Positions 34,496 through 52,791 are shown, numbered from the stretch's first letter. The stretch is DNA of 64,000 bases from Planctomycetota bacterium (GCA_015075515.1 JABTUE010000002.1:533478-597477), one strand, 5' to 3'. The notes: generated by a model not told the origin, from the letters alone. Translations and numbers: made by a program.

Positions 34496-34522
34496 CGAAC
34501 CACTAGCCTTCAGAGGTGCAAC

Positions 34523-35032: not shown

Positions 35033-35290
35033 GTGCGGACAGGCTCAGTGCTGAACTCGATCCTTCTTGGTGTGGCTGTCGCCTGATGACGCACGAGAAA
35101 TGAGTGCTTTAATTGCTGGAATGGCTCAGAGCCCCCTAGCGCCTTCAAGCGGTTAGTGATCACCGAAATCAGTCTGTTGGCGTAGTCCGGAGTCGAACAC
35201 AAGGCTTGGAGTCGAAAAATGCGTCATCTTGCTAACTCACCCTGCTTGATCTTGCTAGGCTTGCTTCTTAGAGGCTGTTTCAAAACCATT

Positions 35291-35677: not shown

Positions 35678-35694
35678 GCCGTTGGCGTCGGTGA

Positions 35695-36093: not shown

Positions 36094-36630
36094 GGCATTC
36101 TCCAGGTTAATGGACCTATGCCAAACCTATCGGCCAGCCTCCCAAGCCAACTTTACTGGTTTTGAAACAGCCTCTAAGGGGCGGCTAACGGAGCGAGGGA
36201 CTGTGCCCCAGCCCCGCGGTTCGCGTCGGAGTCGAACTGTCCTTAGTCCGTGACTTCCCGCATTTTCTGTTGGCAGTTGAGGTCATGTGACCCCATGGGT
36301 TTGGTGCTTCAATGGCCGATTATTCGAATAATCGACCACTTACGGTTTTGTGCTCGATCATATTTGGCTGTTTACGACCTGGGTAGCCAGCGAAGCCCGC
36401 GACATGCCGGTTGGCGATTCTACACCTCCGTCGAGTCGAAGAGGTCTTTGTATGCCTTCGGGTCGGCTATGGTTCGGCCAGGTTCCATGTCGTAGATACC
36501 GAGCAGTTCGGCAAGTCTAGTCGCCTACCGTTTCACTATCACGGGGATCAGGACGCAGATCTGGACAGCATGGGACAAGTGTGTCTCGCAAGCCTTAAGA
36601 GGTTTGATGCAACTGCCTTTCAGGCTGCAA

Positions 36631-37329
36631 TCAGCGTAGACTCTTGGCCAACAGGGCCAGTCTCTTGTTTGTTGCGGCGTCGGAGACCTGATCTCGAAGC
36701 CACCTAACCAACCTTCGAAAGTGCGTGGCTGGTAGCGCCCCTGGGTTGCGAGTGCCCGGCATTCGGCCGAACCAGCCAATCAAGTCAGCATCGGTGACGT
36801 GCGGTGGGTCCTCAACATCGACAAAGATCGGTTTACACGCATGAAACACGCCATGCTTGCGGGCACGGGCACGATACTTGAGGTTCCATTTCCCAAGATC
36901 GTTGTCTTTGCAATCGGTATGGTCGAGCGGGAACGGCATGCTGTCGCGTAGCATGCAGTTGCTGGGCGGCTCAACGCCCCGCTTGCGGTACCACCGGGCA
37001 GCCCGCTCGTGTGCGCGGAGACCGTTTTCGTCGACCTCAGGTCGCCATGACTTCAACACGCGGAGTACCGCAACAAGTCGCCTGCCGGACTCTTCGCCCC
37101 TGGGGTACACGATCTTCTTGGTCATGTAGGCGACCACGTCACCCTGCTTCAGCCGCGGTGCAAAGTTGCCGGCGCGGCATAGCGCTGTGATGGACGGGTA
37201 CTTGGACCTGAGGTCCGGCTCACGACGGCAAGACGCGTCAATGAATGGTGGCAGGCCAAAAAGCGCAACGGCACGCCGCCCGTGGGCGTTATGGATCAAG
37301 GGTCTGAAGGTGTTCAGGTACAGGGACAT
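36631..37329 (-). CDS. Hypothetical protein, last gene of the minus-strand defence-like operon
   Basis: 232-aa ORF 49 nt downstream of the DUF499-like gene on the same strand; no recognised motif. Confidence 0.4.
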   Translation of the reverse strand: MSLYLNTFRPLIHNAHGRRAVALFGLPPFIDASCRREPDLRSKYPSITALCRAGNFAPRLKQGDVVAYMTKKIVYPRGEESGRRLVAVLRVLKSWRPEVDENGLRAHERAARWYRKRGVEPPSNCMLRDSMPFPLDHTDCKDNDLGKWNLKYRARARKHGVFHACKPIFVDVEDPPHVTDADLIGWFGRMPGTRNPGALPATHFRRLVRWLRDQVSDAATNKRLALLAKSLR

Positions 37330-37378
37330 CTGTTCGACTTTCGCAGTGCGCCATGGAGGGTGCGCCCCAACCAGTTGG

Positions 37379-40303
37379 TCACAACCCGGCCTGGACGTCG
37401 TCGTTCAGTCCGAGCTCCCTGAGGTCCGCCTTCGTCTCGTCCATCTTCTGCGCTTGAACGCCGCCCTCGGGAGCTGCCTCGAAACTCACGCTTAGTTTCA
37501 AATTGCCGGCCGTGGCGTACTTGGCCAAGACCTTGGTGTAGAAGTTCATCCACTTCTGCGCCGGCACCTCGCCCGTCCAACGCAGCGTCTTCTGCTTTGG
37601 GGGCTCAGGTAAAGGCGGCGGTTGCGGCGTCTCCTTGCTGGAGATCCTCAATGTTGCTCTCGCCTGAATGTCATCCACGACCGCCTCAACAACGTACTCA
37701 CCTTCCTCGCCAGTGGCCTTGAATCCACCCTTGTCGTCAATGTCGCCGCCCGTGGCTGACCACTTCACGCCACTGACATTCATCGGTCGGCCATGCTGGT
37801 CCAGCCCGCCCACACGAAACACAACGCGCCCCTTGGGTTTCACGTTGGCAATCGAGGGACTGATCTCGATGCTTGTCAGCTTGGGCGGCTCCACGTGCTT
37901 CTTGGCTTCGTCGGCCGTGAGGATCACAACATCGTCTGAAATCTCAATGTCCTCGGCCGCGCAGTCCTGTTCGAAGATGAACGGCTCGTAACGTCCATCT
38001 GGGCGCTTGCCCGCGTATGCTAGGATCTTCTCGCTGACGCCTCTGGCGATGGTCTCCTTGATGACGTCCGCGTTGAGCAGGCGTGGGAACTCCGGGGAAG
38101 CGAAAAATGCATCCCGCACTGCACGTGTGCTCCACTCTGCAAATCCGGGCCATTTCCGGACGAGGAAGTTCGGCGTGATGGTCTTTTCGACGACGCCTTG
38201 CTCCCGAAGTCGCTTGAGTATGACCTCGACCATTGTTGAAGCCTGGCTGGAGTTGATCAGTCCCAAGTCGATCCTGGTCAACTCGTTGTCCTTGCCCAGC
38301 AACAGCAGGAACTTGTAGCTACGCCATACAGATTCCTTCACATCGCGCTTTGCCCGCACCACGTGTTCGGCAAGCTGGCGTTTCTGGCCATCGTCGATGT
38401 GGAGCTCATCCTTTTCGGCGTCAATCGCCTCCCACGCCAGCGCCTTGCGAACTTCTTCTCGCACGTGGTTGGCGGACTCGGCCACGCACCACACAATCGC
38501 GCTCTTGAAGGTCCGGCCTGACTTTCCGCACTCCCATGTCATGGGCTTCACCAAGGCCTTGGTCTTGGCTTCCTCCTCCATGGAATGCTCAGGCGCGAGC
38601 ACTGCCAGCGTCAAGATTGGTCGGTCTGCGACAGCGCTGCTCTTCTCTGGAAAGAACACGCGTTCGATGCCATTGTCTGGCGGAAATACCTTCTGGATTT
38701 CAGCCCGCGCTCGTTCGTCAATCGCCTTCTCCGTGATGCTGGCACGCCTGTCCGAAAAGCGCTTTATCAGATTCTCGGTAGTACTGAACTTGTACCGGTT
38801 GCGTTCAACGGACAGGTAGTAGCAGCCCTGGCTGAGCGTCTCCAGCACGGTTTCAATATGGCCGATGTCGAGGCCGGGCTCGCCCACACCCAGCCGAATC
38901 TCCGGCACAGTTGCCACCGCCTTGAGTTGGCCGCCGTTGGATTCAAAGAAAACTGTCGTGGCAACCTTCTTGTGCAGCCTGGCCTTGCGAATATCCGGCG
39001 TGGCTTCACGGTCCAGCCGGTCTGCGTGGGAGTCGTTCTTGCCGGAAATGTCGGTCGTAACCGCGCCCTCAAGCTTGTTCTCACCCAGCTGCTCAAAGGT
39101 CGCGGTGCGGAAGAATGGATCCTCAAGTGGCGCAGAACCAAGGCCGATCAACGCGTCCTTGTGTGCCCCGCGGTAGTCGTCGCTGTAGGCCTTGGACACC
39201 CACAATGCAAGCAAACGCAGAATGCCGCGGGTCTGCTGGAACCTCGGAAGCTGCTGCCACTTGCGCTCAAACACCGACAAGACCACGGGGTGAAACGGAT
39301 ATGTGGCGGCAAACGCCTCCCTGGCGTTATCCGCGGGAAACCAGCCCGGAATCTGTGTGCGGTGCTCCGACACCCACTCGGCGTATGCCGCAACGACCTT
39401 TTCGGCTTCCTTCGTCAAGCCTTCCCACTCGAAGAGGCGCCGACGAATGATCTCGGCGGTTTCGGTTTCGGCGGACAGCAGTACGGCCTTGGCGTACTTG
39501 TCCAGCTTCTTCTTGATGCGCTGGTAATCGTCCTGGTCCTCAGCCGTCATCTCCAGGTCGGACTTCGGTATCGACACCATTAAAACGATGCGATTGGACG
39601 TCGCCGCAACTTCGCACAGGTTCTCGATGAAGTTGTAAAGCTCGCCGCCAAGGCCGTTCTTCCGGTTTCGGCTGACATAGTTCATGACCTCGTCCATCAG
39701 GATGAGGCAGGGCTTCTTGTCGGGGATGAACGAACGGATCACTTCGCCGGATGGCGCCGTCTTCTGTTTCTCGTGCTCGGCGACCAGTTCAAAGCCTTCC
39801 TTGCCGCCGATCTGCCAGGCCAGTTCTCCCCACGGTGTCTTGCGCACTGGCGTGCCGTCTTTGCCGCCGCGCCCCGTTAGCGAATCGAACTCCGTTCCTA
39901 CAAAAATGCCCGTGGCAGCCTTGGGCACTTCCTTCGTTCCCGCGTGCTCAAGGATGGTGCTGACGCCCCGCCACGACTTTGCCTCTTTGCCGGCCGAAGC
40001 AAGGTGATACAGCAACGTCAACGCGTGGGTCTTGCCGCCGCCGAACTGGGTCACGAGGTTGAAGACGGGCGAGCTCTCAACCACGATTCCCGACAGCCGC
40101 CGCACAACCTGTGCCGCCGTGGTCAGCAGCCCCTTGGTCAGATATGTGCGGCCGAAGAAACGTGCCGGGTCCTGATAGTCCTGCCGTGCATTGCCGTCGC
40201 GCACCTGGTCGAGGTGCACGGCGAACTCTGATGCATCCAGCGGCTTGCCCTCGCGCAGGTCTTCGCGGGGGTAGATCACCTTGTACCAGGGTTGAAGGGC
40301 CAT
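37379..40303 (-). CDS. DUF499-like P-loop ATPase (974 aa)
   Basis: Walker A FGGGKTHALTLLYHL, Walker B CLILMDEVMNY, long helical C-terminal region; resembles the DUF499 family that co-occurs with DUF1156 methyltransferases. Confidence 0.7.
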   Translation of the reverse strand: MALQPWYKVIYPREDLREGKPLDASEFAVHLDQVRDGNARQDYQDPARFFGRTYLTKGLLTTAAQVVRRLSGIVVESSPVFNLVTQFGGGKTHALTLLYHLASAGKEAKSWRGVSTILEHAGTKEVPKAATGIFVGTEFDSLTGRGGKDGTPVRKTPWGELAWQIGGKEGFELVAEHEKQKTAPSGEVIRSFIPDKKPCLILMDEVMNYVSRNRKNGLGGELYNFIENLCEVAATSNRIVLMVSIPKSDLEMTAEDQDDYQRIKKKLDKYAKAVLLSAETETAEIIRRRLFEWEGLTKEAEKVVAAYAEWVSEHRTQIPGWFPADNAREAFAATYPFHPVVLSVFERKWQQLPRFQQTRGILRLLALWVSKAYSDDYRGAHKDALIGLGSAPLEDPFFRTATFEQLGENKLEGAVTTDISGKNDSHADRLDREATPDIRKARLHKKVATTVFFESNGGQLKAVATVPEIRLGVGEPGLDIGHIETVLETLSQGCYYLSVERNRYKFSTTENLIKRFSDRRASITEKAIDERARAEIQKVFPPDNGIERVFFPEKSSAVADRPILTLAVLAPEHSMEEEAKTKALVKPMTWECGKSGRTFKSAIVWCVAESANHVREEVRKALAWEAIDAEKDELHIDDGQKRQLAEHVVRAKRDVKESVWRSYKFLLLLGKDNELTRIDLGLINSSQASTMVEVILKRLREQGVVEKTITPNFLVRKWPGFAEWSTRAVRDAFFASPEFPRLLNADVIKETIARGVSEKILAYAGKRPDGRYEPFIFEQDCAAEDIEISDDVVILTADEAKKHVEPPKLTSIEISPSIANVKPKGRVVFRVGGLDQHGRPMNVSGVKWSATGGDIDDKGGFKATGEEGEYVVEAVVDDIQARATLRISSKETPQPPPLPEPPKQKTLRWTGEVPAQKWMNFYTKVLAKYATAGNLKLSVSFEAAPEGGVQAQKMDETKADLRELGLNDDVQAGL

Positions 40304-40312
40304 CTCGCGCTC

Positions 40313-40894
40313 CTACTTCATCAAACCAAACCTGCCGGTGCCGGCGTCCAGTTGCCACCACTGAAAGAACCCGTACGGAAAGTACTCCGCCTCGTTCGTC
40401 CTGCCCACCACCACAAGGGTCTCGCCTTCAAGGCCGACACGGCCGGCAAGGCCCATGGCCTGCACCACCTGCTCTTCCAATGCCCGCACCAGCTTCGGCG
40501 CGTCCTCCGGGTTTCGCCGGTAGCAAAACACAACCCGCAAACTGGCCCGAACAATCAGCACCTTCCACAGCGAGTACGCAATGCGGTCAACCGCCTGGCT
40601 GTTCTCAAGCTCTGCGACCGCTACCGGGAACCTCCATCGCTTCTCGCTATCCCCAAAGGCCATCATGTCCAGTGCCAGGTACTCGCTTTGGTTCACCGGC
40701 AGCAGCGTGGCCTTGTGCCCGATGGCTGATGCCTGCCAGCCCACTTCGCGGCAGGTTTCCACCGTGCAAGTCGTCAGCGCCCTTGTCCAGGCCGCGAGCT
40801 TGCCCTGCGTGGCCGCCTGCTTGAGCGGCCCGGCGTGCTCCTGCCTGCTGACCAACTGCAGGAAGACATCGCGCCAGTCCGCGGCCTCAACCAT
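40313..40894 (-). CDS. DUF3780-like small protein
   Basis: 193 aa, position between the methyltransferase and ATPase genes as in DUF1156/DUF499 cassettes; 1-nt stop/start overlap (TAATG) with the methyltransferase gene. Confidence 0.45.
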   Translation of the reverse strand: MVEAADWRDVFLQLVSRQEHAGPLKQAATQGKLAAWTRALTTCTVETCREVGWQASAIGHKATLLPVNQSEYLALDMMAFGDSEKRWRFPVAVAELENSQAVDRIAYSLWKVLIVRASLRVVFCYRRNPEDAPKLVRALEEQVVQAMGLAGRVGLEGETLVVVGRTNEAEYFPYGFFQWWQLDAGTGRFGLMK

Positions 40895-43818
40895 TAGAAG
40901 CCCAGTCCTTTCTTGCGGGCAAGCACGCCATCGACCCAGCGTTTTTCGTCCGTGCCCGTCGGGTACAGCGCCGACAACGCCTGTGCAAGCGTCCAGAACT
41001 TACCGTCGCGCCCGACGCCTTCGTCAACCAGAAAGCGTTTCATGGCTTCGCTGCGCCCGGCTGCGAACAGGATCATTGCCTGGTGCACACGGTCCAGTGT
41101 GGTCTCGCCTACCTTGGGGGCACCCTTCTTGCCCCAGCCGCCTTCAACTTCAGCCTGCTCCAGTTCTTCCTCGAAGGCCATTTGTTTCTGCTTGGACTTC
41201 TTACGCCGGCCAGCCGGCGCGTCGCTTTCATCCTTGCCGAAGAGAGCCTTGGTACGCTCAGAAACAGGCAACAGGCGTGCCGTGTCCTTTTCGATGGCGA
41301 CGACTGTCTGGAGATTCTCCAGGTGTGCGCCCAACCCCTGGGCTATCTTGCGCGCCGCGTCGTACTCAAGGCTGAAGCCGGCAGCCTTGCTCTTCTTTTT
41401 GTTCTTGTTGTTGTCGCTGTCGTCGGCGTCAGCGTCGCCACCGGCATCGTCTTCGCCGGAACTATCGGGTTTGCCGTTACCGGTACTCAGCGTCCAGAGC
41501 CACATGGCCGTGAGCCGGGCGTCTTCTTCGAGACTGGCTGCATCCACGCCCTGGAAGACCTGGTTTAGAGCTTCCTGGGACACGGCGGCCCAGACTTGCT
41601 CCAGATAAACCCGCAATGTCACTTCTTCGCCGCTGGCCTTCTCGACACGGGCGTAGCGCGAAAAGATCTCCAAGGCAGGGCCCAGGCAAGCGAAGATGGC
41701 ATCCGCGCCCACGATCCCTTCGGACCGGAGACGTGGCATCCACTCCGAAATGCGCCGAGGAAGTTCAGCGAGTACTTCACGCCAGTCGCCTACTTCGGCA
41801 TCGCGGAGTGAGCCGTCGGGGTTCTCGCGGGGCCTGCAAACCAAGTGGACCGAGCTGCTAAGTGCGGCTGAATCCTTCGCTCTCATCCGAGTGGTGTTCT
41901 CTGTGTGTATGGGCCAGGACGCCGTGACCATCCACCCGGCACTCACCAGTGCATTGAGAAGAGCTTCCCATCCGGCCGTGCCCTTGTGAGCGAAGATCAC
42001 GACACCCACTCCGTCAGGCTTTAGTGCTCGCCGGGCGTCCGCTAGTGCCGCTTGCATCGTTGCTTCGAAGTAACGTCTGTCCTTTGGGGGCCCTTCATCA
42101 GCCGGCGGCCCCGGGTCCATTATGCACTCCCCAGTTTTCGGGCTGAGTTGCGACGAGAACAAACCCGGATGAACATGAACCAAAGCACGCTTGAGCCACA
42201 CAAAGCAAAAATCTGACAGCGCCGCATATGGTATGGCGTCGTAGTACGGAGGGTCTGTCACAAGATATGTAAGAGAGTCATCGGGCAAGGGAGTTCTAGT
42301 TGCCGAGCATCGTGCGACCGTTCCCACTGATCGAATTGAATCCCCCTCCCGAGTCAGAAAGCTGACGATCAGACCATGCGCGTACTCGACACCGCCCACA
42401 AGCCTAGACATTAGTGGATTGGCCTCTGCAAAATCTGGCTTCATTGGTAGACCGCTTCCTTGGAACACGGTCCTGAAGTGATCGTGGCCAAAATAAGAAC
42501 ACGCGGAGAGCATTGGGGCGGTGTTACTGACGGCTAGGGCAATACACGATGCCACTGCGTCGGCGTAGTTGGCATCATCGCCTGCGCTGAGTATCTCCGC
42601 TCTGACATAATCAACGAGCCGGCACATAGTGCCCAACGCCAGTGCCTGCCGGGAAAGGTACACGTCGCTCCACCGTTCCATTCCGTATTTGTTTATTCGG
42701 TAGCCGAGAGTGCCGTCCGGCGGAGTTGGCTCATCCGGTATAAAGGAGTAATGGCCTTGGTTGTTGACTTCAATGCTGGAAAGTTCGCCCTCGGCACTTC
42801 GTGCTGCGTTGATGTCTTCCACAGTGGGCAACCGATAGTGTCGACCGCCGCCCTTGTCCAAGGTGATGACAGCAACCATGCGGGCATCTCGTGTGCCACC
42901 GTGCTTGGCTCGCAGCTGTTCTCGTGTCGCTTTGTACGGCGTCGTGTAGCCGCAGCACGGACAAGTGACTGCCATTCGATTGACAATGCCGGGCTGCACC
43001 TCTTTGTTAGACTTCGGCTCGAACACCTCAACATGCACTCTTTTGGCGGCTCGGTCGCCCCGATATCGCAGGGCCACACGAGACTTTGCTTTCTTGGACA
43101 GCCAAAGCATCCCCAGCAAGGGCACTTCTGCCCCGCAGGCAGGGCCTTCACATGTGATGGTGCGCGCCCAGATGTACGCCAAAGGGATGTTTCCCCTGCT
43201 GTCGGCCGGATAGAAGGCCGACAGTTTTTTTCGCGCTTGTTCCAGCACCCACTTGCCCCATTTCTCAACGCCCTCCGCAAGCCGATGCCCGAACTTGGGG
43301 AGGTACTCCTGCGATACCTTGTTCAGCAACACCGGAATGGGATTGAGGTCGCCGGCGAACGTGTTCGCCCCAACTCGCAGCGCCTCAAATGGAATCGAGC
43401 CCGCGCCGGCAAACGGGTCCATGATCAGCGGCGGACCCTCGGGATGTGCAGCCGAAACCAACCTGCGTGCGGCGGTCAGGTATGTGGGATTCACTCCCGC
43501 GTCCCAGGCCGCAAAGTCGGCCACAAACTGCAGCAGCGCTTGGCGCAAGGCCATTGGGTCCGACAGGTTGCGACCGGTAAACGGCTTGAGGGCTTCACGG
43601 GCGGCTGCACGAAATCCATCCGGGCAGTTCTCGTCAGCGGGATCCGGAACGATCGTTGCCAGAATGACCGCCCGGCAGGACGCCAAGGGCCGCGTTGCCC
43701 ACCAAACGTGCATGGTATGCAGGTGCCCCTTGCGCACATTCTGGTCCTTCCGCGCATGCTCCGAAATCTGACGAATCGGCAGGTCAACTTCGATGAGTTT
43801 CTTGGGTGCATTCTTCAT
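40894..43818 (-). CDS. DUF1156-like N6-adenine (DPPY-motif) DNA methyltransferase (974 aa)
   Basis: N-terminal KLIEVDLPIRQISEHARKDQNVRKGHLHTMHVWWATRPLASCRAVILA block characteristic of DUF1156; catalytic motif IV LVTDPPYYDAIPY; AdoMet-binding FAGAGSIP-like motif. Confidence 0.8.
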   Translation of the reverse strand: MKNAPKKLIEVDLPIRQISEHARKDQNVRKGHLHTMHVWWATRPLASCRAVILATIVPDPADENCPDGFRAAAREALKPFTGRNLSDPMALRQALLQFVADFAAWDAGVNPTYLTAARRLVSAAHPEGPPLIMDPFAGAGSIPFEALRVGANTFAGDLNPIPVLLNKVSQEYLPKFGHRLAEGVEKWGKWVLEQARKKLSAFYPADSRGNIPLAYIWARTITCEGPACGAEVPLLGMLWLSKKAKSRVALRYRGDRAAKRVHVEVFEPKSNKEVQPGIVNRMAVTCPCCGYTTPYKATREQLRAKHGGTRDARMVAVITLDKGGGRHYRLPTVEDINAARSAEGELSSIEVNNQGHYSFIPDEPTPPDGTLGYRINKYGMERWSDVYLSRQALALGTMCRLVDYVRAEILSAGDDANYADAVASCIALAVSNTAPMLSACSYFGHDHFRTVFQGSGLPMKPDFAEANPLMSRLVGGVEYAHGLIVSFLTREGDSIRSVGTVARCSATRTPLPDDSLTYLVTDPPYYDAIPYAALSDFCFVWLKRALVHVHPGLFSSQLSPKTGECIMDPGPPADEGPPKDRRYFEATMQAALADARRALKPDGVGVVIFAHKGTAGWEALLNALVSAGWMVTASWPIHTENTTRMRAKDSAALSSSVHLVCRPRENPDGSLRDAEVGDWREVLAELPRRISEWMPRLRSEGIVGADAIFACLGPALEIFSRYARVEKASGEEVTLRVYLEQVWAAVSQEALNQVFQGVDAASLEEDARLTAMWLWTLSTGNGKPDSSGEDDAGGDADADDSDNNKNKKKSKAAGFSLEYDAARKIAQGLGAHLENLQTVVAIEKDTARLLPVSERTKALFGKDESDAPAGRRKKSKQKQMAFEEELEQAEVEGGWGKKGAPKVGETTLDRVHQAMILFAAGRSEAMKRFLVDEGVGRDGKFWTLAQALSALYPTGTDEKRWVDGVLARKKGLGF

Positions 43819-45277
43819 GGGGACGATGCCTTGATCTTCTCAACCAGCGCCTTGCGTTCTGCTTTTGGTACGCCTTCCAGGTACGCCCGGGCCGCAACCG
43901 CAATCAGTTCGCCACGATTGAGCCGAGTTTGTGTCTCAAGGACGTCAAACCATTGGTGGTGGTCTCTGTCCCTGTTTGCGATGTCCGCGGCACCCCAATC
44001 AACATTCAAGCTTTCGCTGAAGCGCTGACGGAAGGTAGGCGACTTGAAAATCTCCTTTTCAGGCGGTTCCGTGCCAAACAACTTGAAAAGTTGAAGCCGT
44101 ACATTCTCGCCACAGTCTCCATCCCGCACGGCGCATATCGGGATGCGCTGATCTTTGAACACGTCCATCATCTGCGCGATACGGTCCTTATCTCCGGCCG
44201 CAAACACGCGTGCTGTCTTCAGGAAGTCCGCGTCATGCATGCGCAGAAGCTCGGTAACAACGGCCCCCGCAATTTCGTCCTCCACGAGAATGTAGATCGA
44301 CGGAATGGCCAAGCTGTCCATCATGCTGACGGCCTGGCGGACACCGATTCGCGGAATCGGAACGACACCCGTCCCCTCCCGCTTCAGGAAGACGCGAGAT
44401 TCTTCCGGCAGTGCCAAGAGTACATACTCGCTGTGTGTGGTCATGAGAATCTGGAGCTTTCGGCGCTTTGCAACCTCTACCAGGTACTTTCCGAGCTCAA
44501 ACTGGGCGCTCGGGTGTAGCGCTGTTTCCGGTTCCTCTAGCAGAATCAGGCTTTTCACTGGCGTGGCTTCCAAGGCTGTGACAACCAGGTACAGGCGGGC
44601 TTCGCCGGACCCCATGTTGGCCTCGGTGTATTCCGCGCCGACCTCGCGCTTGACGGTGAGCATATCAAAGGCCCGCCGGGCGTACCTCTTCTTCATGACA
44701 TTCACGTGGGCGGCGTCGTACTTGCACAACAGGATCTGCGAGACGCGTTCAATCACCTCGGCTTGGATCTGCTTTCTCTCACGCGCAGAGAGTTCGGCAT
44801 CTTCAAGTTGCTTCTTGACTCCGCGCTCCGCTCCGAGTGCGGCACGTAGAACCCTGTACCGATGTAACGGACGTGGCGATCTGGCTGGCGGTCGTAGCCT
44901 GCCCATGAATCGCCTGAACGTGACACCGTATTGGTAGTTACCCTTGCCGCGCCATCCTTGCCCGGCTGAGCTGCGTAGAAAAACTCTACCGACGCATCAT
45001 CCCGAAACGGTTTCTGCGGCAATCCGCCTACGAGGATGAATGTAGATACGTAGTAGCGCTCTTTACACTTGTATGCGGACGCTGCAAGCTGCAAGACCGT
45101 TGACTTGCCTGTGCCATTCACGCCGCAAAGCGCCAAGATCGGGCTCTCGATGGAGATCGTTGTGTCGGTGTGGTTGCGGAACCCCTGTATCCGCATGCGC
45201 ATCAACACTTCGCCGTAGCGCTCAAAGCGCGTTGACGCTGCAAAGTCCGCCTGAAGCTCTTTACGCGGATCAGCCAT
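43815..45277 (-). pseudogene. OLD/PARIS-like ABC-type ATPase plus TOPRIM(DUF4435-like) nuclease gene, disrupted by a frameshift near 44840-44865
   Basis: Upstream frame (45277-44753): Walker A GVNGTGKST. Downstream frame (to 43815): Walker B/D-loop LILLEEPETALHP, MTTHS, then TOPRIM-like ILVEDEIAGAVV...AAGDKDRI...AVRDGD. The two frames overlap by ~150 nt with no intervening in-frame stop. Confidence 0.55.
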
Positions 45278-48200
45278 TCACGGCCCCCTTGATGGCCTGT
45301 GCTGAAACAGCGTAATGCTCCACGGTCACGATGGGCTTCCATCCCAAGCGTGCCGGGTTGCGCACCACGTGAACTTGGGGTGTCGAGCCGCAGTTGAAAA
45401 CCACGTACAGCCAGAAGTCGTCCTTCAGCCGTTCGGCGGTCTTGTATTCGTTGGTGGTCAGCGCCACCTCGCCCACGCCCGAGCGTCCCTTCACCTCAAT
45501 GAAGCGCACGTCTATAGCTGTGGCCGGGTCCTCCGGGTGCGGCAGCCTTGATATCAGATCAAAGCCACGGTTCTCGTTCTCGACGCTCTCGACCGTGCGG
45601 CCCTGGGCTTCCTCGTAGGCGATCACGGCTTGCACGGCAATGCGCTCAATCTCGTCGTCCCGGACCATCGGGGCCACGCCGGGCGAGGTGCGCTCCGGGT
45701 GCGGCAGAACCCAGGCGCAGCCAACGTGCTGGATTTCGCCGATAGTGCACTGGCACTCGCGGTCAAGCTCGGCGATGCGCTGCTCGCGCCGGCCATTCAG
45801 TTCTTCCAGCCTGTCTTCGGCCTGCTTCATGCTTGCAATCAGCCACGGCGGCGTGGTGCCGAGCTTGCTGGCCTGGTCATGCAGCCCGGCATAGGTCATC
45901 TGCTGGCGGTGGATCAGCTCGTTCAGGCTGATCTCAATGTGCCGGCGGATGGTGTTGGTTTCCTTCAGGCGCTGCTTGGCGACCTCGGCCAGGAAGCCTG
46001 TCAGGCACTTGTCCATCAGGGCGTGCTCTCTGGCCTCGCGGGACGCCAGACCATCAGGCCCCGGCGCGGCGGTGCCCTTTGGCGCGGCCGTCAGGTCAAG
46101 GAAGATGGTGGGCTGCCGCACGGAAAGCTCGCCGCCCGGCGTGGCCTGCACCACAAACAGGCGACGGTGCAGCACGTTGCCAAGGCCGTCCTTCACAGAC
46201 GCCGAAAACACGTCCAGGTGGTAGGGCACGGGACTGTGCAGGTCATGAAACACCGCGCCGCGTCCCAAGCCCTCGCGCACTTGTTCCCACAGAGTCTGGC
46301 GCACGGTTTCAAACAAGGGGTGGCCGGGTGTGACCCATTCGCACGTGGGATCTTTGCTAAGCAGGGTTTTGTCAAAGACGATCTGCTTGTACTCGCGGCC
46401 CAGTTTGCCAAATCGGGACTCAAGCTTGTCGCCCATGGGCCACAAGTGCCGGGGCACGCGGCCGACACGATAGTTGTGGCTTGCGGCCGGCGTTTCTTTG
46501 GGCACGACACCCACAACTGGGCCCGCCTGGACGAAGAAATCCTCGATGACCTCGGGAACGAGGCGGCGCTCGCGGGCCTCGGCCGATTTGCCTACGATGG
46601 CGGAAAGGTTGAGCTCTTTCTTGGCCAGGCCTTCGAGGGTTGATTCAGTGATCTCGCGGAAGCGTTTGGGGTCAACGTCCTGCACGATGCGGGCCTTGAT
46701 GCTCTCTTCTGTCTGGTTGTGCAGGTACATGTCGCGGATCAACTTCTCGAGCTGGTTCGACGGAAACAAGTCGCCCAGCACGTTGAACACCTTCCCGGTG
46801 CGCAGAGGGTCCAGGTCGGCTTCGATCTGCTCCAGACGTTCAAACAGCTTGTCCAGCACGCGGCCTTCACGTGTGTTGGTGGCCACGAAGTTGAAGATGA
46901 GGCAGTCTTTCTCCTGGCCGTAGCGGTGGATACGGCCCATGCGCTGCTCAAGCCTCACGGGGTTCCACGGGATGTCGTAGTTGATCATGAACCAGCAGAA
47001 CTGCAGGTTGATACCTTCGCCCGCGGCCTCGGTGGCTACAAGTACCTGGGCGGAATCACGAAACTCTCGTTCGGCGTAGATGCGGGTGCCGGGCGTGTCG
47101 CGGTCGCCGATCTTCATGCCGCCGTGGATCTGGGTGACCGACAGCCCCCAGCCGTTCATCTTGCCGACGAGGTAATCCAGCGTGTCCTTGTGCTCGGTGA
47201 ACAGCAGCAGCTTCATCGCCGGGTCTTTGAAGATGCCCTTCTCGATGAGCAACTCGCGCAGGCGTGTCAGCTTGGTTTCAATCTCGCGCTGCTCCAGCAG
47301 CTTGGCCTGGTCGATCAACTTGTTCAGCTCGATGATCTCTTCGCGCAGGGCAGCCGGGTCAACGGACGCGACCACATCTTCAAGCTCGGCCAGAATCTCC
47401 TGCTGCTCGTCGTCCGGCAGTTCATCGAAGTCCTCCGGCAGCTTCTTGTTGATCTGCCGCTTACGGTAACCTTCGGGGTCCTTGAGAATGTCCTCGCGCT
47501 TGTCGCGCATACGCTCCAGGCTGCGGCGTGCCGCATAAACACTGGACGCTAGCCGGCGCTGCAACATGGCCATCGTGAAGCCAACAGCGCGGCCGGTCGT
47601 GGCATTGGCTGCCTGGGCCTTAATGGACTGATCTTCAACGTAGCGCGTGAGCGTGTCGTAGAGGTCCCACTCGTCGCTGTCGATCTCGAACTTGGCCGTC
47701 TGGACGTTGCGCTTGGTGAACAGTTTTTTGATCTGGCCGGTGTCCGGGTCCGGGAACGTAACCAGGGCTTCTTTGGTCCGGCGCAGATAGAACGGCGCGG
47801 AGTTGCGCTGCATGGCTTCTTCAAGGCTCTTGACGTCGCCGTACACGTCGGAATCCAGCAGCCGCAAGAACAGGCAGAAGTGGTCCGGGTCGCCCTTGTG
47901 CGGCGTGGCTGTCATGAGCAGGTAGTGGTCGGTCATCGCCGACAAGTGCTCGCCAAGCTGGTAGGCCAGCGTCTTCTTGTCAGCACTGTAGGCCGACATT
48001 TTGTGGGCCTCATCGACAATGATCAGGTCCCAATGGCTGCGCAGCAGGCTTGCGCGGGCATCGTCAATGCGCGACACCCAGGACACTGACGTGATGACCT
48101 GGTTCTTGTCTTGCCACGGGTTGGTGCCGTAGTTCGCGCGCAGCACGTCACCCTTGACGATTTCAAAGGTCTCGCGGAACTTGTCTTTCAGTTCGCGCTG

Positions 48201-48731
48201 CCACTGAAAGGTGAGGTTCGCCGGCGTGACGATCAACGTGCGCTTTGCAAGGCCGCGAACCTTGAGCTCCTTCAGCAGCAAACCGGCCATGATGGTCTTG
48301 CCGGCGCCCGGGTCGTCGGCAAGCAGAAAGCGGATGCGCGGCAGCTTGATGAAGTAGTCGTAAACGGCCTCAAGCTGGTGTGGCAGCGGGTCCACGCGGG
48401 CGATGGAAAGCGAGAAGTAAGGGTCGTACTCGTACGCTAGGCCAAGCCGCAGCGATTCCACGCCAAGGCGGAACTGCACCGGGTCGCCATCGAACGGCGG
48501 TTGATCGGGGCTGACATTGAGTGAGGCTAGCTGGGTGGGGTCGAGGACAGGCTCATAGACCTTGCCCGAGTCCAACCCCTTGCCAACAAGCTTGACCGAG
48601 GGCCCGACGGGCATGCACACGATTACCTGCACGGGCTCTGGGAACAGAGAGCCGCGCACGATTGCTCCGGGTTTCGGCGCACTTCCGGTCATCCGCCCGC
48701 ACCAGTTGGTTCGAATCACCCATTCAGCCAT
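45270..48731 (-). CDS. SNF2-family helicase with C-terminal DUF3883-like (restriction-endonuclease-fold) domain
   Basis: Motif I LADDPGAGKTIMAG, motif II LIIVDEAHKM, helicase-C motifs VLVATEAAGEGINLQ and QRMGRIHRYGQ; C-terminal ~120 aa (IDVRFIEVKGRSG...WLYVVFN) resemble DUF3883. Confidence 0.8.
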   Translation of the reverse strand: MAEWVIRTNWCGRMTGSAPKPGAIVRGSLFPEPVQVIVCMPVGPSVKLVGKGLDSGKVYEPVLDPTQLASLNVSPDQPPFDGDPVQFRLGVESLRLGLAYEYDPYFSLSIARVDPLPHQLEAVYDYFIKLPRIRFLLADDPGAGKTIMAGLLLKELKVRGLAKRTLIVTPANLTFQWQRELKDKFRETFEIVKGDVLRANYGTNPWQDKNQVITSVSWVSRIDDARASLLRSHWDLIIVDEAHKMSAYSADKKTLAYQLGEHLSAMTDHYLLMTATPHKGDPDHFCLFLRLLDSDVYGDVKSLEEAMQRNSAPFYLRRTKEALVTFPDPDTGQIKKLFTKRNVQTAKFEIDSDEWDLYDTLTRYVEDQSIKAQAANATTGRAVGFTMAMLQRRLASSVYAARRSLERMRDKREDILKDPEGYRKRQINKKLPEDFDELPDDEQQEILAELEDVVASVDPAALREEIIELNKLIDQAKLLEQREIETKLTRLRELLIEKGIFKDPAMKLLLFTEHKDTLDYLVGKMNGWGLSVTQIHGGMKIGDRDTPGTRIYAEREFRDSAQVLVATEAAGEGINLQFCWFMINYDIPWNPVRLEQRMGRIHRYGQEKDCLIFNFVATNTREGRVLDKLFERLEQIEADLDPLRTGKVFNVLGDLFPSNQLEKLIRDMYLHNQTEESIKARIVQDVDPKRFREITESTLEGLAKKELNLSAIVGKSAEARERRLVPEVIEDFFVQAGPVVGVVPKETPAASHNYRVGRVPRHLWPMGDKLESRFGKLGREYKQIVFDKTLLSKDPTCEWVTPGHPLFETVRQTLWEQVREGLGRGAVFHDLHSPVPYHLDVFSASVKDGLGNVLHRRLFVVQATPGGELSVRQPTIFLDLTAAPKGTAAPGPDGLASREAREHALMDKCLTGFLAEVAKQRLKETNTIRRHIEISLNELIHRQQMTYAGLHDQASKLGTTPPWLIASMKQAEDRLEELNGRREQRIAELDRECQCTIGEIQHVGCAWVLPHPERTSPGVAPMVRDDEIERIAVQAVIAYEEAQGRTVESVENENRGFDLISRLPHPEDPATAIDVRFIEVKGRSGVGEVALTTNEYKTAERLKDDFWLYVVFNCGSTPQVHVVRNPARLGWKPIVTVEHYAVSAQAIKGAVNG

Positions 48732-48905
48732 CCACCGACTGCATCACAACGCCCGAGTTGGAACGAGGTTACGCCCGGTGTTTACAAGCCGGAAACACCA
48801 TACTCGGTGCTGCGACACTTTCCAAGGATGGACGGGAATCGGATCTCGCGTCGCATTCAGATGTAGGCTGTCCGGCGTAGCGGCCACCCATGCCCAGCAG
48901 GCGAC

Positions 48906-48933
48906 TATTGCAAATGCAATAGCTCCTGCAATA
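48906..48933. promoter_or_regulatory. Operator-like palindrome TATTGCA-AA-TGCAATA plus third TGCAATA half-site, immediately upstream of XRE regulator gene
   Basis: Perfect inverted repeat at 48906-48921 and repeat half-site 48927-48933, 10 nt before the ATG at 48944, in the divergent intergenic region shared with the helicase operon. Confidence 0.45.
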
Positions 48934-48943
48934 CTGGGCAACT

Positions 48944-49294
48944 ATGTGGACAGGCGCCAACATTCAGAAGCTACGACACCGCTTAGGCTGGACCATGGAG
49001 CAGATGGCCCAGGCGATGGGCGTCAACTACACGACCATTTGGCGCTGGGAGAGCGCCGTGCTGCCTCAGCTTCCCGACTGGCAGGGCGTGATTCTGAACA
49101 GGCTGGCGGCCTACGCCGACGAATGGGAGGCGAAGCAACGCGCTCAGCAGCAGGCTCAAGCTGCAAAGCAGGGCGCGGGTGATGCCCTGGGGACGATACT
49201 GGTTGCCGGCGGGCTCATCGCGTTGGCGGCAGCGCTGTTCGCCGGCGCCGCCGGTTCGTCCAAGCCGACCAAGAAACGGACGCGACGGAAATAG
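48944..49294 (+). CDS. XRE-family helix-turn-helix transcriptional regulator with C-terminal transmembrane anchor
   Basis: HTH LGWTMEQMAQAMGVNYTTIWRWE; C-terminal hydrophobic LGTILVAGGLIALAAALFAGAAG followed by KKRTRRK. Confidence 0.6.
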   Translation: MWTGANIQKLRHRLGWTMEQMAQAMGVNYTTIWRWESAVLPQLPDWQGVILNRLAAYADEWEAKQRAQQQAQAAKQGAGDALGTILVAGGLIALAAALFAGAAGSSKPTKKRTRRK

Positions 49295-49368
49295 GCGGGC
49301 TTTACGGGCTTGCCCGCCAAAGGACCTAAATGCCCGAAAACCGTTGAAAAGAAAGGAGGATCGAAACC

Positions 49369-49515
49369 ATGCGTAAGGACATCGCAAAGACAGGCAGCGC
49401 AAAGCTGGCCCCGAAGGGCCAGCTTAGGCTGACCGTGCCGCTGAAGACCGAATCACTGGTCATCGCGGGACTGTTCTGCTTCGGACTGGCGCTGCTGGTC
49501 TCCGCCGCAAAGTAG
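49369..49515 (+). CDS. 48-aa tail-anchored small membrane peptide (not in ORF track)
   Basis: ATG 8 nt downstream of AAAGGAGG; MRKDIAKTGSAKLAPKGQLRLTVPLKTESLVIAGLFCFGLALLVSAAK; followed by a strong terminator hairpin. Confidence 0.4.
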   Translation: MRKDIAKTGSAKLAPKGQLRLTVPLKTESLVIAGLFCFGLALLVSAAK

Positions 49516-49534
49516 CATCACGGCGGAAGGTGGG

Positions 49535-49576
49535 AGGGGCGCGCCAACGCCCCTCCCACTGTCATTCTGATTGAAA
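49535..49576 (+). terminator. Rho-independent terminator-like hairpin
   Basis: GGGAGGGGCG-CGCCAA-CGCCCCTCCC perfect 10-bp stem, then ACTGTCATTCTGATT. Confidence 0.55.
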
Positions 49577-49690
49577 CAAACTGAAATTCAATGGCCGTTT
49601 TATGTGGGAGTGGAGGTGGGAGCGCGCCTGCCTCTCTCGGATCGAAAACCGCCAGCCTCGGCATAAGTGCTTTGGCTGGCGGCGTTTACT

Positions 49691-49775
49691 TGGAGCGGGC
49701 GAAGGGGTTCGAACCCTCGACCACCTGCTTGGGAAGCGACAAGTACACACCTTCCCCCAACTAGACCGACTTGGC
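49691..49775 (-). other. tRNA-like 3' fragment (T-arm, acceptor 3' strand, CCA) without a matching 5' acceptor strand; candidate att-site remnant
   Basis: Minus-strand reads ...GGTCGAGGGTTCGAACCCCTTCGCCCGCTCCA, a canonical T-stem/loop/acceptor/CCA. No complementary GCGGGCG 5' strand could be found by eye. Confidence 0.4.
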
Positions 49776-49863
49776 CCAATGAGCCTCACACTGGCTTCAC
49801 GGGCTGAGTTGCGGGCGATTGACGATCCCGGATCAAAACCTTGCATGTCCCTGCTTGTCCCGG

Positions 49864-49896
49864 ATATCGTGTACATATCGTGTACATATCGTGTAC
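49864..49896. repeat. Three perfect tandem copies of 11-bp ATATCGTGTAC
   Basis: Read directly at 49864-49896, ~45 bp upstream of the integrase start codon; candidate integrase arm-type binding sites. Confidence 0.7.
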
Positions 49897-49941
49897 AACG
49901 GGGACGCCTGTCGCGTAAGCAGGCGGTCATGGGTTCAGGTC

Positions 49942-51207
49942 ATGGCGAGGTCGAGAAAACCAGCGCGGGTCGTGAAGTGGCGCGGTGTGTGGTACCTGTT
50001 CTACACGGACCACAGCACCAACCGGCAGATGCGCCTGGCATGCACCTCGTTGGGCGCGACCAACGCGGACGAACGCCGCGAGCTCCTCAACGAGTATCGC
50101 TCCAAGGAAGTCAACGATCTTGCCGAAGTCAACAAGCGCGGGGGCGGCTTGGCATACGATCGCCCGTTGATCACGGAGCTTGACAGCTACGTGGAGGCGT
50201 CGCTCAAGCGGGTATCTATTCGTGCCGCCAATCCAGAAGCGCGTAGCGGACTGAGCGCCAAGACCGGCAAGGTGATCGAGAATGTTGTGGACCACTTCAA
50301 GAAGTGGCTTATCCGAACCGGCCGAGAGCGATTGACCACGGGAAGGCTTGATGGCCCAACGCTGCGCGAGTATCGCGACGACTTGGCGGCAGAACCCGCG
50401 CGGCTTGGTCGCAAAGCCGTCAAGAGGTCCGCGCCGACCATCAACCAGTATCTGCGAACGATCAAGACCTGCCTGGTCTTCCTGCACTCAAAGCGCCCTC
50501 CTCGATTCCCAGACTTCGAGAACTTGAGGATTGCGCTGAAGCCACTGCGGGAGGATCGGAAATCCCCCGTGGCATACACGCCGGCGGAGCTTCGGGCCTT
50601 TCTGGCGGAGGCGGAGGCCCGCGAACAACCCCACAAAGTAGTGGAGGTTCAACGAACCAAGCACGACAAGCCAGAGAAGTTCCTCATGGAGACGGTCAAG
50701 ACTGCTTCCACGCCTGTTTCGCGCCTCTTTCTGGTCTTGGCGCTGATCGGATGCCGCCTGGGCGAAGCCCTGGCCCTGAGGTGGCAGGACGTTGATCTCA
50801 ATCGTGGCAGGATCACCATCCGTGCGCCCAAAACCGGACGCACGCGCTGGATTCCATTGGTGGGCGCCCCCGAGGGCGCCATTGCGCCCTCTTTGCTGGA
50901 CAGGTTGCGGCGCTGGCGTGAAGAAGACCCCAAACGCGAGTATGTCCTGCCCCACACTGGCCTAGACGCGCCCGTCTTTCCCAAGGGGGCATGGAAGGGC
51001 ACCAACCGCAACGCGGGCATCAGGGCGATCTCCCCGCAGCACCTGCGGCAGAACTTCACCAGCTACGCGGGCTCACTTGGCATCCCTGCCACGGTGGCGG
51101 CCATGTGGCAAGGGCACGGTGCAGACGTGGCTGAGAAGCACTACCGCGCCCAAGTACTCGACCGCAACGAAGGAGCTTCCTTCGACGTCGCGATGGGATT
51201 AGCCTGA
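49942..51207 (+). CDS. Tyrosine-type site-specific integrase
   Basis: C-terminal catalytic region ALIGCRLGEALALRWQDVDL (Arg I), HLRQNFTSYAG (His-x-x-Arg), HYRA (Tyr nucleophile); start at ATG 49942 rather than upstream 49819. Confidence 0.8.
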   Translation: MARSRKPARVVKWRGVWYLFYTDHSTNRQMRLACTSLGATNADERRELLNEYRSKEVNDLAEVNKRGGGLAYDRPLITELDSYVEASLKRVSIRAANPEARSGLSAKTGKVIENVVDHFKKWLIRTGRERLTTGRLDGPTLREYRDDLAAEPARLGRKAVKRSAPTINQYLRTIKTCLVFLHSKRPPRFPDFENLRIALKPLREDRKSPVAYTPAELRAFLAEAEAREQPHKVVEVQRTKHDKPEKFLMETVKTASTPVSRLFLVLALIGCRLGEALALRWQDVDLNRGRITIRAPKTGRTRWIPLVGAPEGAIAPSLLDRLRRWREEDPKREYVLPHTGLDAPVFPKGAWKGTNRNAGIRAISPQHLRQNFTSYAGSLGIPATVAAMWQGHGADVAEKHYRAQVLDRNEGASFDVAMGLA

Positions 51208-51227
51208 ATTGAGAATGAGAGGAACGT

Positions 51228-52772: not shown

Positions 52773-52791
52773 AAATCAGGAGAAGTCAACC

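What the first reader, a model, noticed from the sequence alone, without database searches (positions are those of the whole stretch)
43815..45277. Embedded OLD/PARIS-like ATPase-TOPRIM gene is split by a frameshift inside a tightly coupled operon
The Walker A half (frame starting 45277) and the Walker B/TOPRIM half (frame ending 43815) overlap by ~150 nt around 44840-44865 with no in-frame stop between them. Either a single indel inactivated the gene (toxic nuclease arm silenced while the methyltransferase and helicase modules are retained), or it is a sequencing error, or expression requires ribosomal frameshifting. Each alternative changes the interpretation of the cassette. The gene start overlaps the helicase stop (8 nt) and its stop overlaps the methyltransferase start (ATGA), so it is not a recent sloppy insertion.
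Basis: seen in the sequence. Interest (0 to 1): 0.6.

Follow-up and report, generated by a model that had tools for sequence, protein, structure and literature searches.

The report
Frameshifted HEC-04 defence nuclease gene
A phage-defence gene (an ATPase fused to a DNA-cutting domain, family HEC-04) nested inside an Hma defence operon of a Planctomycetota genome has really lost one base and is split in two; this is most likely an ordinary, recent gene inactivation.

Summary
On the minus strand, a 174-aa Walker-A ORF (44753..45277) and a 363-aa Walker-B/TOPRIM ORF (43815..44906) overlap by 154 nt. The second lies in the -1 frame of the first. Both are wedged between a SNF2 helicase and a DUF1156 methyltransferase with 8-nt and 4-nt overlaps.

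The operon is a PADLOC Hma system (HmaA, HmaB, HmaC). The split gene is HEC-04, a published, experimentally validated ABC-ATPase-TOPRIM defence protein of about 489 aa.

- More than 100 homologues are single ORFs. In about 20 species the gene sits at the same place in one frame.
- Profile scoring puts the lesion at 44800-44832. The best repair adds one T at 44817/44818, which restores a conserved Phe.
- It is not a sequencing error. The identical junction is present in all 11 fetched contigs (of 18 on record) from at least six run series, and no intact near-identical allele is on record.
- It is very unlikely to be programmed frameshifting. There is no slippery heptamer, no homopolymer, no downstream RNA structure, and the frameshift is not conserved.
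- Apart from the indel the gene looks healthy: 87 of 89 highly conserved columns are kept and all catalytic motifs are present. The inactivation is therefore recent.

Verdict: ordinary pseudogene of a known family; low interest.

The parts
45270..48731 (-). hmaA: SNF2/DEAD helicase with a NOV_C domain (1153 aa), first gene of the Hma operon. Its stop overlaps the start of the split gene by 8 nt.
   Evidence: PADLOC HmaA E=2.2e-194 over residues 22-1126. Pfam SNF2-rel_dom, Helicase_C and NOV_C. Aligns almost end to end with orthologues in about 20 species.
44753..45277 (-). N-terminal fragment of the frameshifted HEC-04 gene (174 aa). Residues 1-153 are native (Walker A GVNGTGKST at 45098..45124, Insert-1 sheet, strand S2). 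The last ~21 residues are out-of-frame tail ending at TGA 44755..44753.
   Evidence: PADLOC HEC-04 E=7e-12, profile positions 18-145. Alignment to intact homologues. NCBI MBE7491680.1.
44800..44832 (-). Frameshift junction. The best single repair adds one T at 44817/44818 (GAG-TC-AAG to GAG-TTC-AAG), restoring a Phe/Tyr that is conserved in homologues. The alternative is loss of one copy of the tandem GGAGC GGAGC at 44825..44834.
   Evidence: Profile scoring of all single repairs: +1 nt 758.7 bits at 44817/44818 with a plateau over 44800-44832; -2 nt 754.3 bits; -5 nt 751.8 bits. Alignment A1.
43815..44906 (-). C-terminal fragment ORF of HEC-04 (363 aa as the longest ORF; native sequence starts at about 44816). 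It carries the ABC signature MGSGEAR (44595..44615), Walker B SLILLEEPE (44526..44552), and TOPRIM VEDE (44274..44285), GD (44190..44195) and RDGD (44115..44126). Its stop overlaps the hmaB start (ATGA). Gene callers start it at GTG 44756, which overlaps the N-fragment stop (GTGA).
   Evidence: PADLOC HEC-04 E=6.4e-32, profile positions 139-403. NCBI MBE7491679.1, 313 aa.
40894..43818 (-). hmaB: DUF1156 DNA methyltransferase (974 aa).
   Evidence: PADLOC HmaB E=5e-101. Pfam DUF1156. Full-length matches in orthologous loci.
40313..40894 (-). Small conserved gene (193 aa) between hmaB and hmaC. It belongs to no described family.
   Evidence: No Pfam, NCBIfam or PADLOC hit. Present at 47-63% identity at the same position in 7 other loci.
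37379..40303 (-). hmaC: DUF499 ATPase (974 aa), last core gene of the Hma operon.
   Evidence: PADLOC HmaC E=6.7e-125. Pfam DUF499..

Best explanation
The region is a four-gene Hma operon (hmaA helicase, hmaB DUF1156 methylase, a small conserved gene, hmaC DUF499 ATPase) of a Planctomycetota MAG. One cargo gene, HEC-04, is embedded between hmaA and hmaB. HEC-04 is normally one ~489-aa polypeptide: an OLD-like ABC ATPase that senses infection, fused to a TOPRIM nuclease effector.

In this lineage a small indel has shifted the frame between strand S2 and the signature/Walker B part of the ATPase. The indel is most probably loss of one T from a TTC Phe codon at 44817/44818. Less probably it is a 5-nt tandem duplication of GGAGC.

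Ribosomes starting at 45277 therefore stop at 44753 after 153 native residues plus about 21 junk residues. Walker A ends up on one fragment, and Walker B, the H-loop and the TOPRIM site on another. Published mutants show that both the Walker A lysine and the TOPRIM metal site are needed for defence, so the gene is most likely a null allele.

The mutation is real and, on all evidence on record, fixed in this clonal population. It is recent: no second lesion is present and the conserved residues are kept.

- Shown: gene identity, single-ORF norm, position of the lesion, reproducibility across assemblies, absence of recoding signals.
- Inferred: loss of function; that the cost or toxicity of the nuclease favoured or permitted the loss; possible polarity on hmaB, whose start is translationally coupled to the now largely untranslated C-terminal ORF.
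For: - **Family and architecture.** PADLOC HmaA/HmaB/HmaC and HEC-04 are the best hits. The repaired protein gives one continuous HEC-04 match at E=1.3e-47. Fold and sequence are nearest to OLD 6p74, GajA and PtuA.
- **Single ORF is the norm.** Most of the 120 listed homologues are 484-499 aa at 99-100% coverage. In about 20 GTDB species the N and C parts lie in one frame between hmaA and hmaB.
- **Lesion placed.**
- **Real, not error.** The exact 174-aa product is on 18 contigs from SRR11593520, SRR21762700/1, SRR28263012-15, SRR24682841/44, SRR30015101, ERZ3604704 and the NCBI MAG. All 11 fetched loci contain the 81-nt junction exactly, with no gaps in or near it. No intact allele above 67% identity was found.
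- **Recent.** Only 2 of 89 columns conserved at >=95% depart (D87P, S218T), against 0-6 in intact homologues.
- **HEC-04 needs both domains and is toxic when induced.** bioRxiv 10.1101/2024.01.29.577857.
Against: - Loss of function is inferred, not measured.
- Both fragments remain clean ORFs with all motifs intact. This is what a very young pseudogene looks like, but also what a still-selected split gene would look like.
- The population is nearly clonal at this locus (0-1 SNP in the gene), so there is no polymorphism with which to test for relaxed selection after the frameshift.
- The break lies at the topological position where Rad50/SMC heads are naturally bipartite, so reassembly of the two fragments is not structurally absurd.
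- A GTG start overlaps the new stop (GTGA), which could allow reinitiation.
- Read-level heterogeneity could not be examined.
Confidence: 0.8

Rival explanations
1. Functional split gene. The N fragment (Walker A lobe) and a C fragment reassemble into an active ATPase-nuclease, as separately expressed Rad50 N and C lobes do. The C fragment would be translated either by termination-reinitiation at the GTGA overlap (44753..44756) or from ATG 44906.
For: - The break falls after strand S2, in the helix at the start of Insert 2 and before the signature/Walker B lobe (AF2 model of the 67%-identical homologue P0001, pLDDT 89).
- PDB holds Rad50 heads solved as separate N (149 aa) and C chains that match this N lobe.
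- Both ORFs are free of further lesions and keep all motifs.
- A GTG start overlaps the N-fragment stop.
Against: - No homologue is naturally organised this way. Other short homologues are broken at different places, or only appear short because the gene start was called late or the contig ends.
- A start at GTG 44756 would lose about 21 native residues. ATG 44906 lies inside the upstream ORF and has only a weak AGG upstream.
- The arrangement arises from a frameshift with junk tails, not from a clean gene fission.
- Intactness is equally explained by recency.
Confidence: 0.1
2. Programmed -1 ribosomal frameshifting, or transcriptional slippage, produces the full-length protein from the sequence as it stands.
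For: The needed shift is -1, the common direction for programmed frameshifting. The two frames overlap without stops for 244 nt.
Against: - There is no X XXY YYZ heptamer anywhere in the overlap. The only homopolymer of 4 or more is T5 at 44983, about 165 nt upstream of the homology junction.
- The 96 nt after the junction fold less stably than shuffled controls (z=+1.19).
- Homologues in all other lineages are plain single ORFs, so recoding is not a trait of the family.
Confidence: 0.03
3. Sequencing or assembly artefact: the organism has an intact gene.
For: The window comes from a MAG with a very long contig (987 kb), possibly long-read based. L001 has only 2.7x coverage.
Against: - The identical junction occurs, with no gaps in or near it, in all 11 fetched contigs, which come from different run series and three assembly pipelines (NCBI MAG, ENA SPAdes, Logan).
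- The junction context has no homopolymer.
- All neighbouring large genes are intact.
- No intact allele exists in the 15-billion-protein collection.
Confidence: 0.03

Closest known systems
HEC-04 (Hma-embedded candidate 04; PADLOC PDLC04149; Payne et al., bioRxiv 10.1101/2024.01.29.577857)
   Same: It is the best profile match for both halves and for the repaired protein. The domain order is the same, ABC ATPase then TOPRIM. The gene is embedded in an Hma operon. The Walker A lysine and the TOPRIM Glu and Asp-x-Asp residues are present.
   Different: Here the reading frame is broken after residue 153, so the defining fusion of ATPase and TOPRIM in one polypeptide is lost. The match to the PADLOC profile is moderate (160 bits). 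The closest intact relatives are 67% identical.
Hma system (HmaA helicase, HmaB methylase, HmaC ATPase; Payne et al. 2021, PMC8565338)
   Same: All three core genes are present, full length, on one strand and tightly coupled, in the order hmaA, hmaB, hmaC. There is embedded cargo, as in 63% of Hma systems.
   Different: An extra conserved 193-aa gene lies between hmaB and hmaC and belongs to no described family. The cargo gene is frameshifted.
OLD-family nucleases (Thermus scotoductus OLD 6P74; P2 Old) and Gabija GajA
   Same: They share the ABC ATPase plus C-terminal TOPRIM nuclease architecture. They are the best PDB hits both by sequence profile (6p74, E=5e-13) and by fold (6p74, E=4e-14; GajA).
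   Different: Only 12-16% identity and global TM-scores of about 0.3-0.36. The inserts and the C-terminal helical extension differ. There is no GajB-type or UvrD-type partner gene; the partners here are Hma genes.
PARIS (AriA ATPase + AriB TOPRIM, or fused AriAB)
   Same: An ABC ATPase associated with a TOPRIM nuclease. The AriA profiles hit the Walker B region (E=4e-23).
   Different: The AriA and AriAB matches cover only the ~90 residues around Walker B and are far weaker than HEC-04. No DUF4435/AriB-type domain was detected. The two ORFs here result from a frameshift inside the ATPase domain, not from an AriA/AriB gene boundary.

Membership tests
HEC-04 (PADLOC) | Best-scoring significant match to the HEC-04 profile | tested here: met
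   The N half scores E=7e-12 and the C half E=6.4e-32, each the top hit. The repaired protein scores E=1.3e-47 as one stretch, residues 16-413 on profile positions 18-403.
HEC-04 (PADLOC) | ABC ATPase and TOPRIM fused in one polypeptide of about 490 aa | tested here: not met
   In the present sequence the frame breaks at about 44818, giving ORFs of 174 aa and 363 aa (or 313 aa as called). The ancestral state, and most of the 120 listed homologues, are single ORFs of 484-499 aa. This is therefore a disrupted member.
HEC-04 (PADLOC) | Catalytic residues shown to be essential (Walker A Lys; TOPRIM Glu and Asp-x-Asp) | tested here: met
   K58 lies in GVNGTGKST. E333 (VEDE) and D386/D388 (RDGD) are kept. 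Their essentiality comes from the K62A and EDD mutants in 10.1101/2024.01.29.577857.
HEC-04 (PADLOC) | Embedded between genes of an Hma system | tested here: met
   It lies between hmaA and hmaB with 8-nt and 4-nt overlaps. The position is the same in about 20 other species.
HEC-04 (PADLOC) | Confers phage defence | not testable with these tools
   This needs plaque assays with the native and the repaired allele.
Hma system | HmaA, HmaB and HmaC present once each, on the same strand, not pseudogenes | tested here: met
   PADLOC E-values are 2e-194, 5e-101 and 7e-125. Full-length alignment to orthologues.
OLD-family nuclease | N-terminal ABC ATPase plus C-terminal TOPRIM with a conserved metal site | tested here: met
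   Pfam AAA_15, AAA_21 and AAA_23. PF20469 (OLD-like TOPRIM) is precomputed for several homologues. 6p74 is the top hit by profile and by fold.
PARIS (AriA/AriB) | AriA-type ATPase over its full length, with a DUF4435/AriB TOPRIM partner or fusion | tested here: not met
   AriA profiles match only residues 181-287 of the repaired protein. AriAB scores E=7.5e-13 against 1.3e-47 for HEC-04. No DUF4435 hit.
Septu (PtuA/PtuB) | PtuA ATPase with an adjacent PtuB HNH nuclease | tested here: not met
   PtuA profiles give only weak partial hits. No HNH gene is in the operon.
Programmed -1 ribosomal frameshift site | Slippery X XXY YYZ heptamer in the frame overlap | tested here: not met
   None is present in 44753..44996.
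Programmed -1 ribosomal frameshift site | Stable downstream stem-loop or pseudoknot | tested here: not met
   Minimum free energy -20.9 kcal/mol against a shuffle mean of -24.25; z=+1.19.
Programmed -1 ribosomal frameshift site | Frameshift conserved among homologues | tested here: not met
   Homologues are single ORFs. The few broken ones are broken elsewhere.

The most novel reading that the evidence does not exclude
The frameshifted allele is not dead. The 174-aa Walker-A lobe and a C-terminal Walker-B/TOPRIM fragment would reassemble into an active, naturally split OLD-family nuclease, in the way bipartite Rad50 heads do. The C fragment would be re-initiated at the GTGA stop-start overlap at 44753..44756, which would also keep translational coupling to hmaB. 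Such a split could lower toxicity while keeping defence.
Probability: 0.07. Interest if true: 0.45.

Novelty: new member of a known kind. Interest (0 to 1): 0.2.

Why it matters
- **For annotation.** The two 'AAA family ATPase / ATP-binding protein' entries (MBE7491680.1 and MBE7491679.1) are one disrupted HEC-04 gene and should be flagged as a pseudogene. The cassette should be read as Hma with inactivated cargo, not as a PARIS-like two-gene module.
- **For biology.** It is one more example of an embedded, potentially toxic effector being switched off while its host system stays intact. That fits the reported toxicity of HEC-04 on induction and the rapid turnover of cargo in Hma systems.
- **Overall.** It opens no new question. 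It would matter more only if the split form proved active, or if disruption of HEC-04 turned out to be systematically recurrent.

Tried and rejected
- **Slippery sites and homopolymers in the frame overlap.** None relevant.
- **RNA structure downstream of the junction.** Less stable than shuffles.
- **Internal promoters or terminators in 43700-49500.** No promoter-like sites; terminator-like hits at the chance level.
- **Search for a closer intact allele.** The full-length search gave a best hit of 67% identity. A junction-only 150-aa query returned only P0127 (53%) and the window's own N fragment. A DNA pattern with a variable gap across the junction found 0 hits in JGI metagenomes.
- **Structure prediction of the repaired protein.** The 67%-identical P0001 was modelled instead.
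- **Literature search for the run accessions.** Nothing found, so the sample types are unknown.
- **5-nt tandem duplication (GGAGC x2) as the lesion.** Not excluded, but it scores 7 bits worse than +1 T and would make the protein 2 residues shorter than all close homologues.
- **PARIS, Septu or Gabija membership.** Rejected on profile coverage and missing partner genes.
- **Test for relaxed selection after the frameshift.** Not possible. The contigs are 100% identical apart from one SNP in L001 (44716 A>C, Asp to Ala, at 2.7x coverage) and two contig ends that switch into a diverged allele.
Full report
**1. Observation**

On the minus strand there is an ORF at 44753..45277 (174 aa) and an ORF at 43815..44906 (363 aa).
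- The first encodes the Walker A motif GVNGTGKST.
- The second encodes an ABC signature-like MGSGEAR, the Walker B motif LILLEEPE, and TOPRIM motifs VEDE, GDKD and VRDGD.
- The ORFs overlap by 154 nt. The downstream frame is open as far back as 44996, so the two frames run side by side without stops for 244 nt.
- The downstream frame is the -1 frame of the upstream one. This corresponds to loss of 1 nt, or gain of 2 or 5 nt.
- The upstream ATG overlaps the stop of the preceding 1153-aa gene by 8 nt. The downstream stop overlaps the ATG of the following 974-aa gene in an ATGA.

**2. What the genes are**

PADLOC profiles identify the operon as an Hma system:
- HmaA SNF2 helicase, 45270..48731, E=2e-194.
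- HmaB DUF1156 methyltransferase, 40894..43818, E=5e-101.
- HmaC DUF499 ATPase, 37379..40303, E=7e-125.

Pfam agrees.

The two fragments both hit HEC-04 best. The N fragment covers profile positions 18-145 and the C fragment 139-403, which are adjoining parts of one model.

HEC-04 is 'Hma-embedded candidate 04' of Payne et al. (bioRxiv 10.1101/2024.01.29.577857). [quoted passage not shown] It protects E. coli from phages. Defence is abolished by a Walker A mutation (K62A) and by a TOPRIM metal-site mutation (E319A/D375A/D377A). It could not be induced because of apparent toxicity. In that paper 63% of Hma systems carry embedded genes.

By profile and by fold, the nearest solved structures are the Thermus OLD nuclease 6P74, then GajA, retron-associated OLD/PtuA ATPases and SMC/Rad50 heads. 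PARIS AriA and Septu PtuA profiles match only the ~90 residues around Walker B. There is no DUF4435 or HNH partner. 'OLD-like' is therefore right and 'PARIS-like' is imprecise.

**3. Is one ORF the normal state?**

Yes.
Most of the 120 listed are 484-499 aa and cover 99-100% of the query, at up to 67% identity.
- In about 20 species of at least ten phyla from the GTDB scan, the gene lies at the same place, hmaA-HEC04-hmaB-(small gene)-hmaC. In nearly all of them the N and C parts are in one frame.

**4. Where is the lesion?**

In the alignment, the N frame follows the homologues up to ...GFYVPHSERSAE. The C frame follows them from KKQLEDAELSAR....

I scored every possible +1-nt, -2-nt and -5-nt repair between 44920 and 44761 against a profile of 32 intact homologues:
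- The best repair is insertion of a T at 44817/44818 (GAG TC AAG to GAG TTC AAG), at 758.7 bits. It restores a Phe where homologues have Phe or Tyr, and gives exactly the homologues' length.
- Removing one copy of the tandem GGAGC GGAGC (44825..44834) also restores a frame. It scores 7 bits lower and shortens the protein by two residues.

I favour the 1-nt deletion at about 3:1. Only a closer intact relative or polymorphic reads can settle it.

**5. Real mutation or artefact?**

The window is from a Planctomycetota MAG. NCBI already lists the two fragments as MBE7491680.1 and MBE7491679.1, on a 987-kb contig.

The exact 174-aa product, which ends at the frameshift-created stop, is on 18 contigs. 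These come from Logan assemblies of SRR11593520, SRR21762700/1, SRR24682841/44, SRR28263012-15 and SRR30015101, and from ENA ERZ3604704.

All 11 loci fetched contain the 81-nt junction exactly. None has a gap in or near the split gene, and eight are 100% identical to the window over 3.7-6.5 kb. The exceptions are L001 (one SNP) and L009 and L010, described below.

No intact allele closer than 67% is on record. The junction has no homopolymer. A sequencing or assembly error is therefore very unlikely.

**6. Programmed recoding?**

- There is no X XXY YYZ heptamer in the overlap. The only run of four or more identical bases is T5 at 44983, far upstream of the homology junction.
- The 96 nt downstream fold less stably than shuffled sequence (z=+1.19).
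- The frameshift is not shared by any homologue.

I put this at about 3%.

**7. Age and state of the gene**

Apart from the indel the gene looks healthy.
- It departs from only 2 of 89 columns that are at least 95% conserved (D87P, S218T). Intact homologues depart at 0-6.
- There is no second stop or indel in 1.46 kb, and all catalytic residues are kept.

Either the lesion is recent or the pieces are still under selection. The population is nearly clonal at this locus, so this cannot be tested. The only variation seen:
- One SNP in L001 (44716 A>C, Asp to Ala in the conserved KYDAAH motif, at 2.7x coverage).
- The end of L009 and the end of L010 each switch into a 14-20% diverged allele of a second strain.

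**8. Mechanistic reading**

An AlphaFold model of the 67%-identical homologue P0001 (pLDDT 89) places the break in the short helix 154-159. This is just after strand S2 and before Insert 2, the signature helix, Walker B, the H-loop and the TOPRIM domain.

The frameshift thus separates the Walker A lobe from the Walker B/TOPRIM lobe. Both the Walker A lysine and the TOPRIM site are required for HEC-04 defence, and the family works as a fused sensor-effector. The simplest outcome is a null allele.

The loss is plausibly tolerated or favoured because HEC-04 is toxic when over-expressed. This is an inference.

A secondary inference concerns hmaB. Its ATG overlaps the stop of the C-terminal ORF. 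That ORF is now about 940 nt of mostly untranslated mRNA unless ribosomes re-initiate, so the frameshift may be polar on hmaB and hmaC.

The new TGA stop overlaps an in-frame GTG (GTGA, 44753..44756). Gene callers take this GTG as the start of the 313-aa product. Reinitiation there could both relieve polarity and yield a C fragment.

Rad50 and SMC heads are bipartite at this same topological position, and Rad50 heads have been solved as separate N-lobe and C-lobe chains. A functional split protein is therefore not impossible. I give it about 10%, because no homologue is organised that way and because the fragments carry frameshift junk or lose about 21 native residues.

**9. Comparison with the known, and novelty**

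This is a disrupted member of a published family (HEC-04) in its published context (Hma). It fails the family's defining 'single fused polypeptide' feature only because of the lesion. Nothing here is a new kind of system.

**10. Wider context seen in passing**

- GC content drops from about 0.64 to about 0.60 at roughly 34 kb.
- An IS630-like transposase lies at 33348..34495, and a tyrosine integrase at 49819..51207, just upstream of hmaA. The Hma cassette is therefore probably in an acquired island.
- Some other HEC-04 homologues are also disrupted, at different positions. L093, a short-read assembly, has one frame change at about residue 77 with intact hmaA and hmaB. This hints at recurrent cargo inactivation but was not quantified.

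**Verdict**

This is an ordinary, recent pseudogenisation of a known defence gene. Interest 0.2.

Noticed in passing
window 33348..34495 (+): An IS630-like transposase is in two ORFs: an HTH part (33348..33806; HTH_32) and a DDE_3 part (33803..34495) in the -1 frame. An A6 run (33793..33798) sits just before the 4-nt overlap. This is either a second frameshifted gene in the window or a programmed frameshift or slippage site of the IS.
   Followed up: partly
window ~34000..64000; integrase 49819..51207 (+): GC content falls from about 0.64 (1-34 kb) to about 0.59-0.60 (34-64 kb), starting at the transposase. A tyrosine recombinase gene lies just upstream of hmaA. The Hma cassette probably sits in a horizontally acquired island.
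   Followed up: partly
window 40313..40894 (-): A 193-aa gene lies between hmaB and hmaC and has no Pfam, NCBIfam or PADLOC match. It is nevertheless conserved (47-63% identity) at the same position in 7 other Hma loci (L013, L018, L022, L024, L025, L029, L030). It looks like an undescribed accessory Hma component.
   Followed up: partly
L093:3654-5116; L092:3513-4972; L014:10001-11471; L029:10001-11436; L033:10001-10375: Other HEC-04 homologues are disrupted at different positions. L093 (a megahit assembly) changes frame at about residue 77 while hmaA and hmaB are intact. L092, L014 and L029 have several breaks (decayed or error-prone assemblies). L033 keeps only residues 1-124. This may reflect recurrent inactivation of this cargo gene.
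   Followed up: partly
L009 (window 44088..44211) and L010 (window 43214..43738): Two Logan contigs from SRR24682844 and SRR24682841 are identical to the window except for a terminal stretch that is 14-20% diverged. In L009, 13 of the 17 differences are at third codon positions. A second, related strain with a diverged Hma/HEC-04 locus seems to co-occur, and its HEC-04 state is unknown.
   Followed up: partly
window 31348..33093 (+): A 581-aa protein has an N-terminal GHKL/HATPase_c_3 (sacsin/MORC-like) ATPase domain and a faint match to BbrUII/HgiDII-family restriction enzymes. It lies next to the transposase and may be another defence-related gene.
   Followed up: no
window 24103..31198 (+): A heavy-metal-type RND efflux operon: outer-membrane factor (OEP), a 216-aa unknown, a CusB/HlyD-like adaptor with heavy-metal-binding domains, and an AcrB/CusA-like pump. 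It appears ordinary.
   Followed up: no
window 36631..37329 (-); 52693..57546 (+); 60172..61653 (+): A 232-aa ORF lies 49 nt downstream of hmaC, and three large ORFs (714, 546 and 333 aa) lie beyond the integrase. None has a family match. A PD-(D/E)XK (PDDEXK_4) nuclease is at 60172..61653. These are uncharacterised island genes.
   Followed up: no
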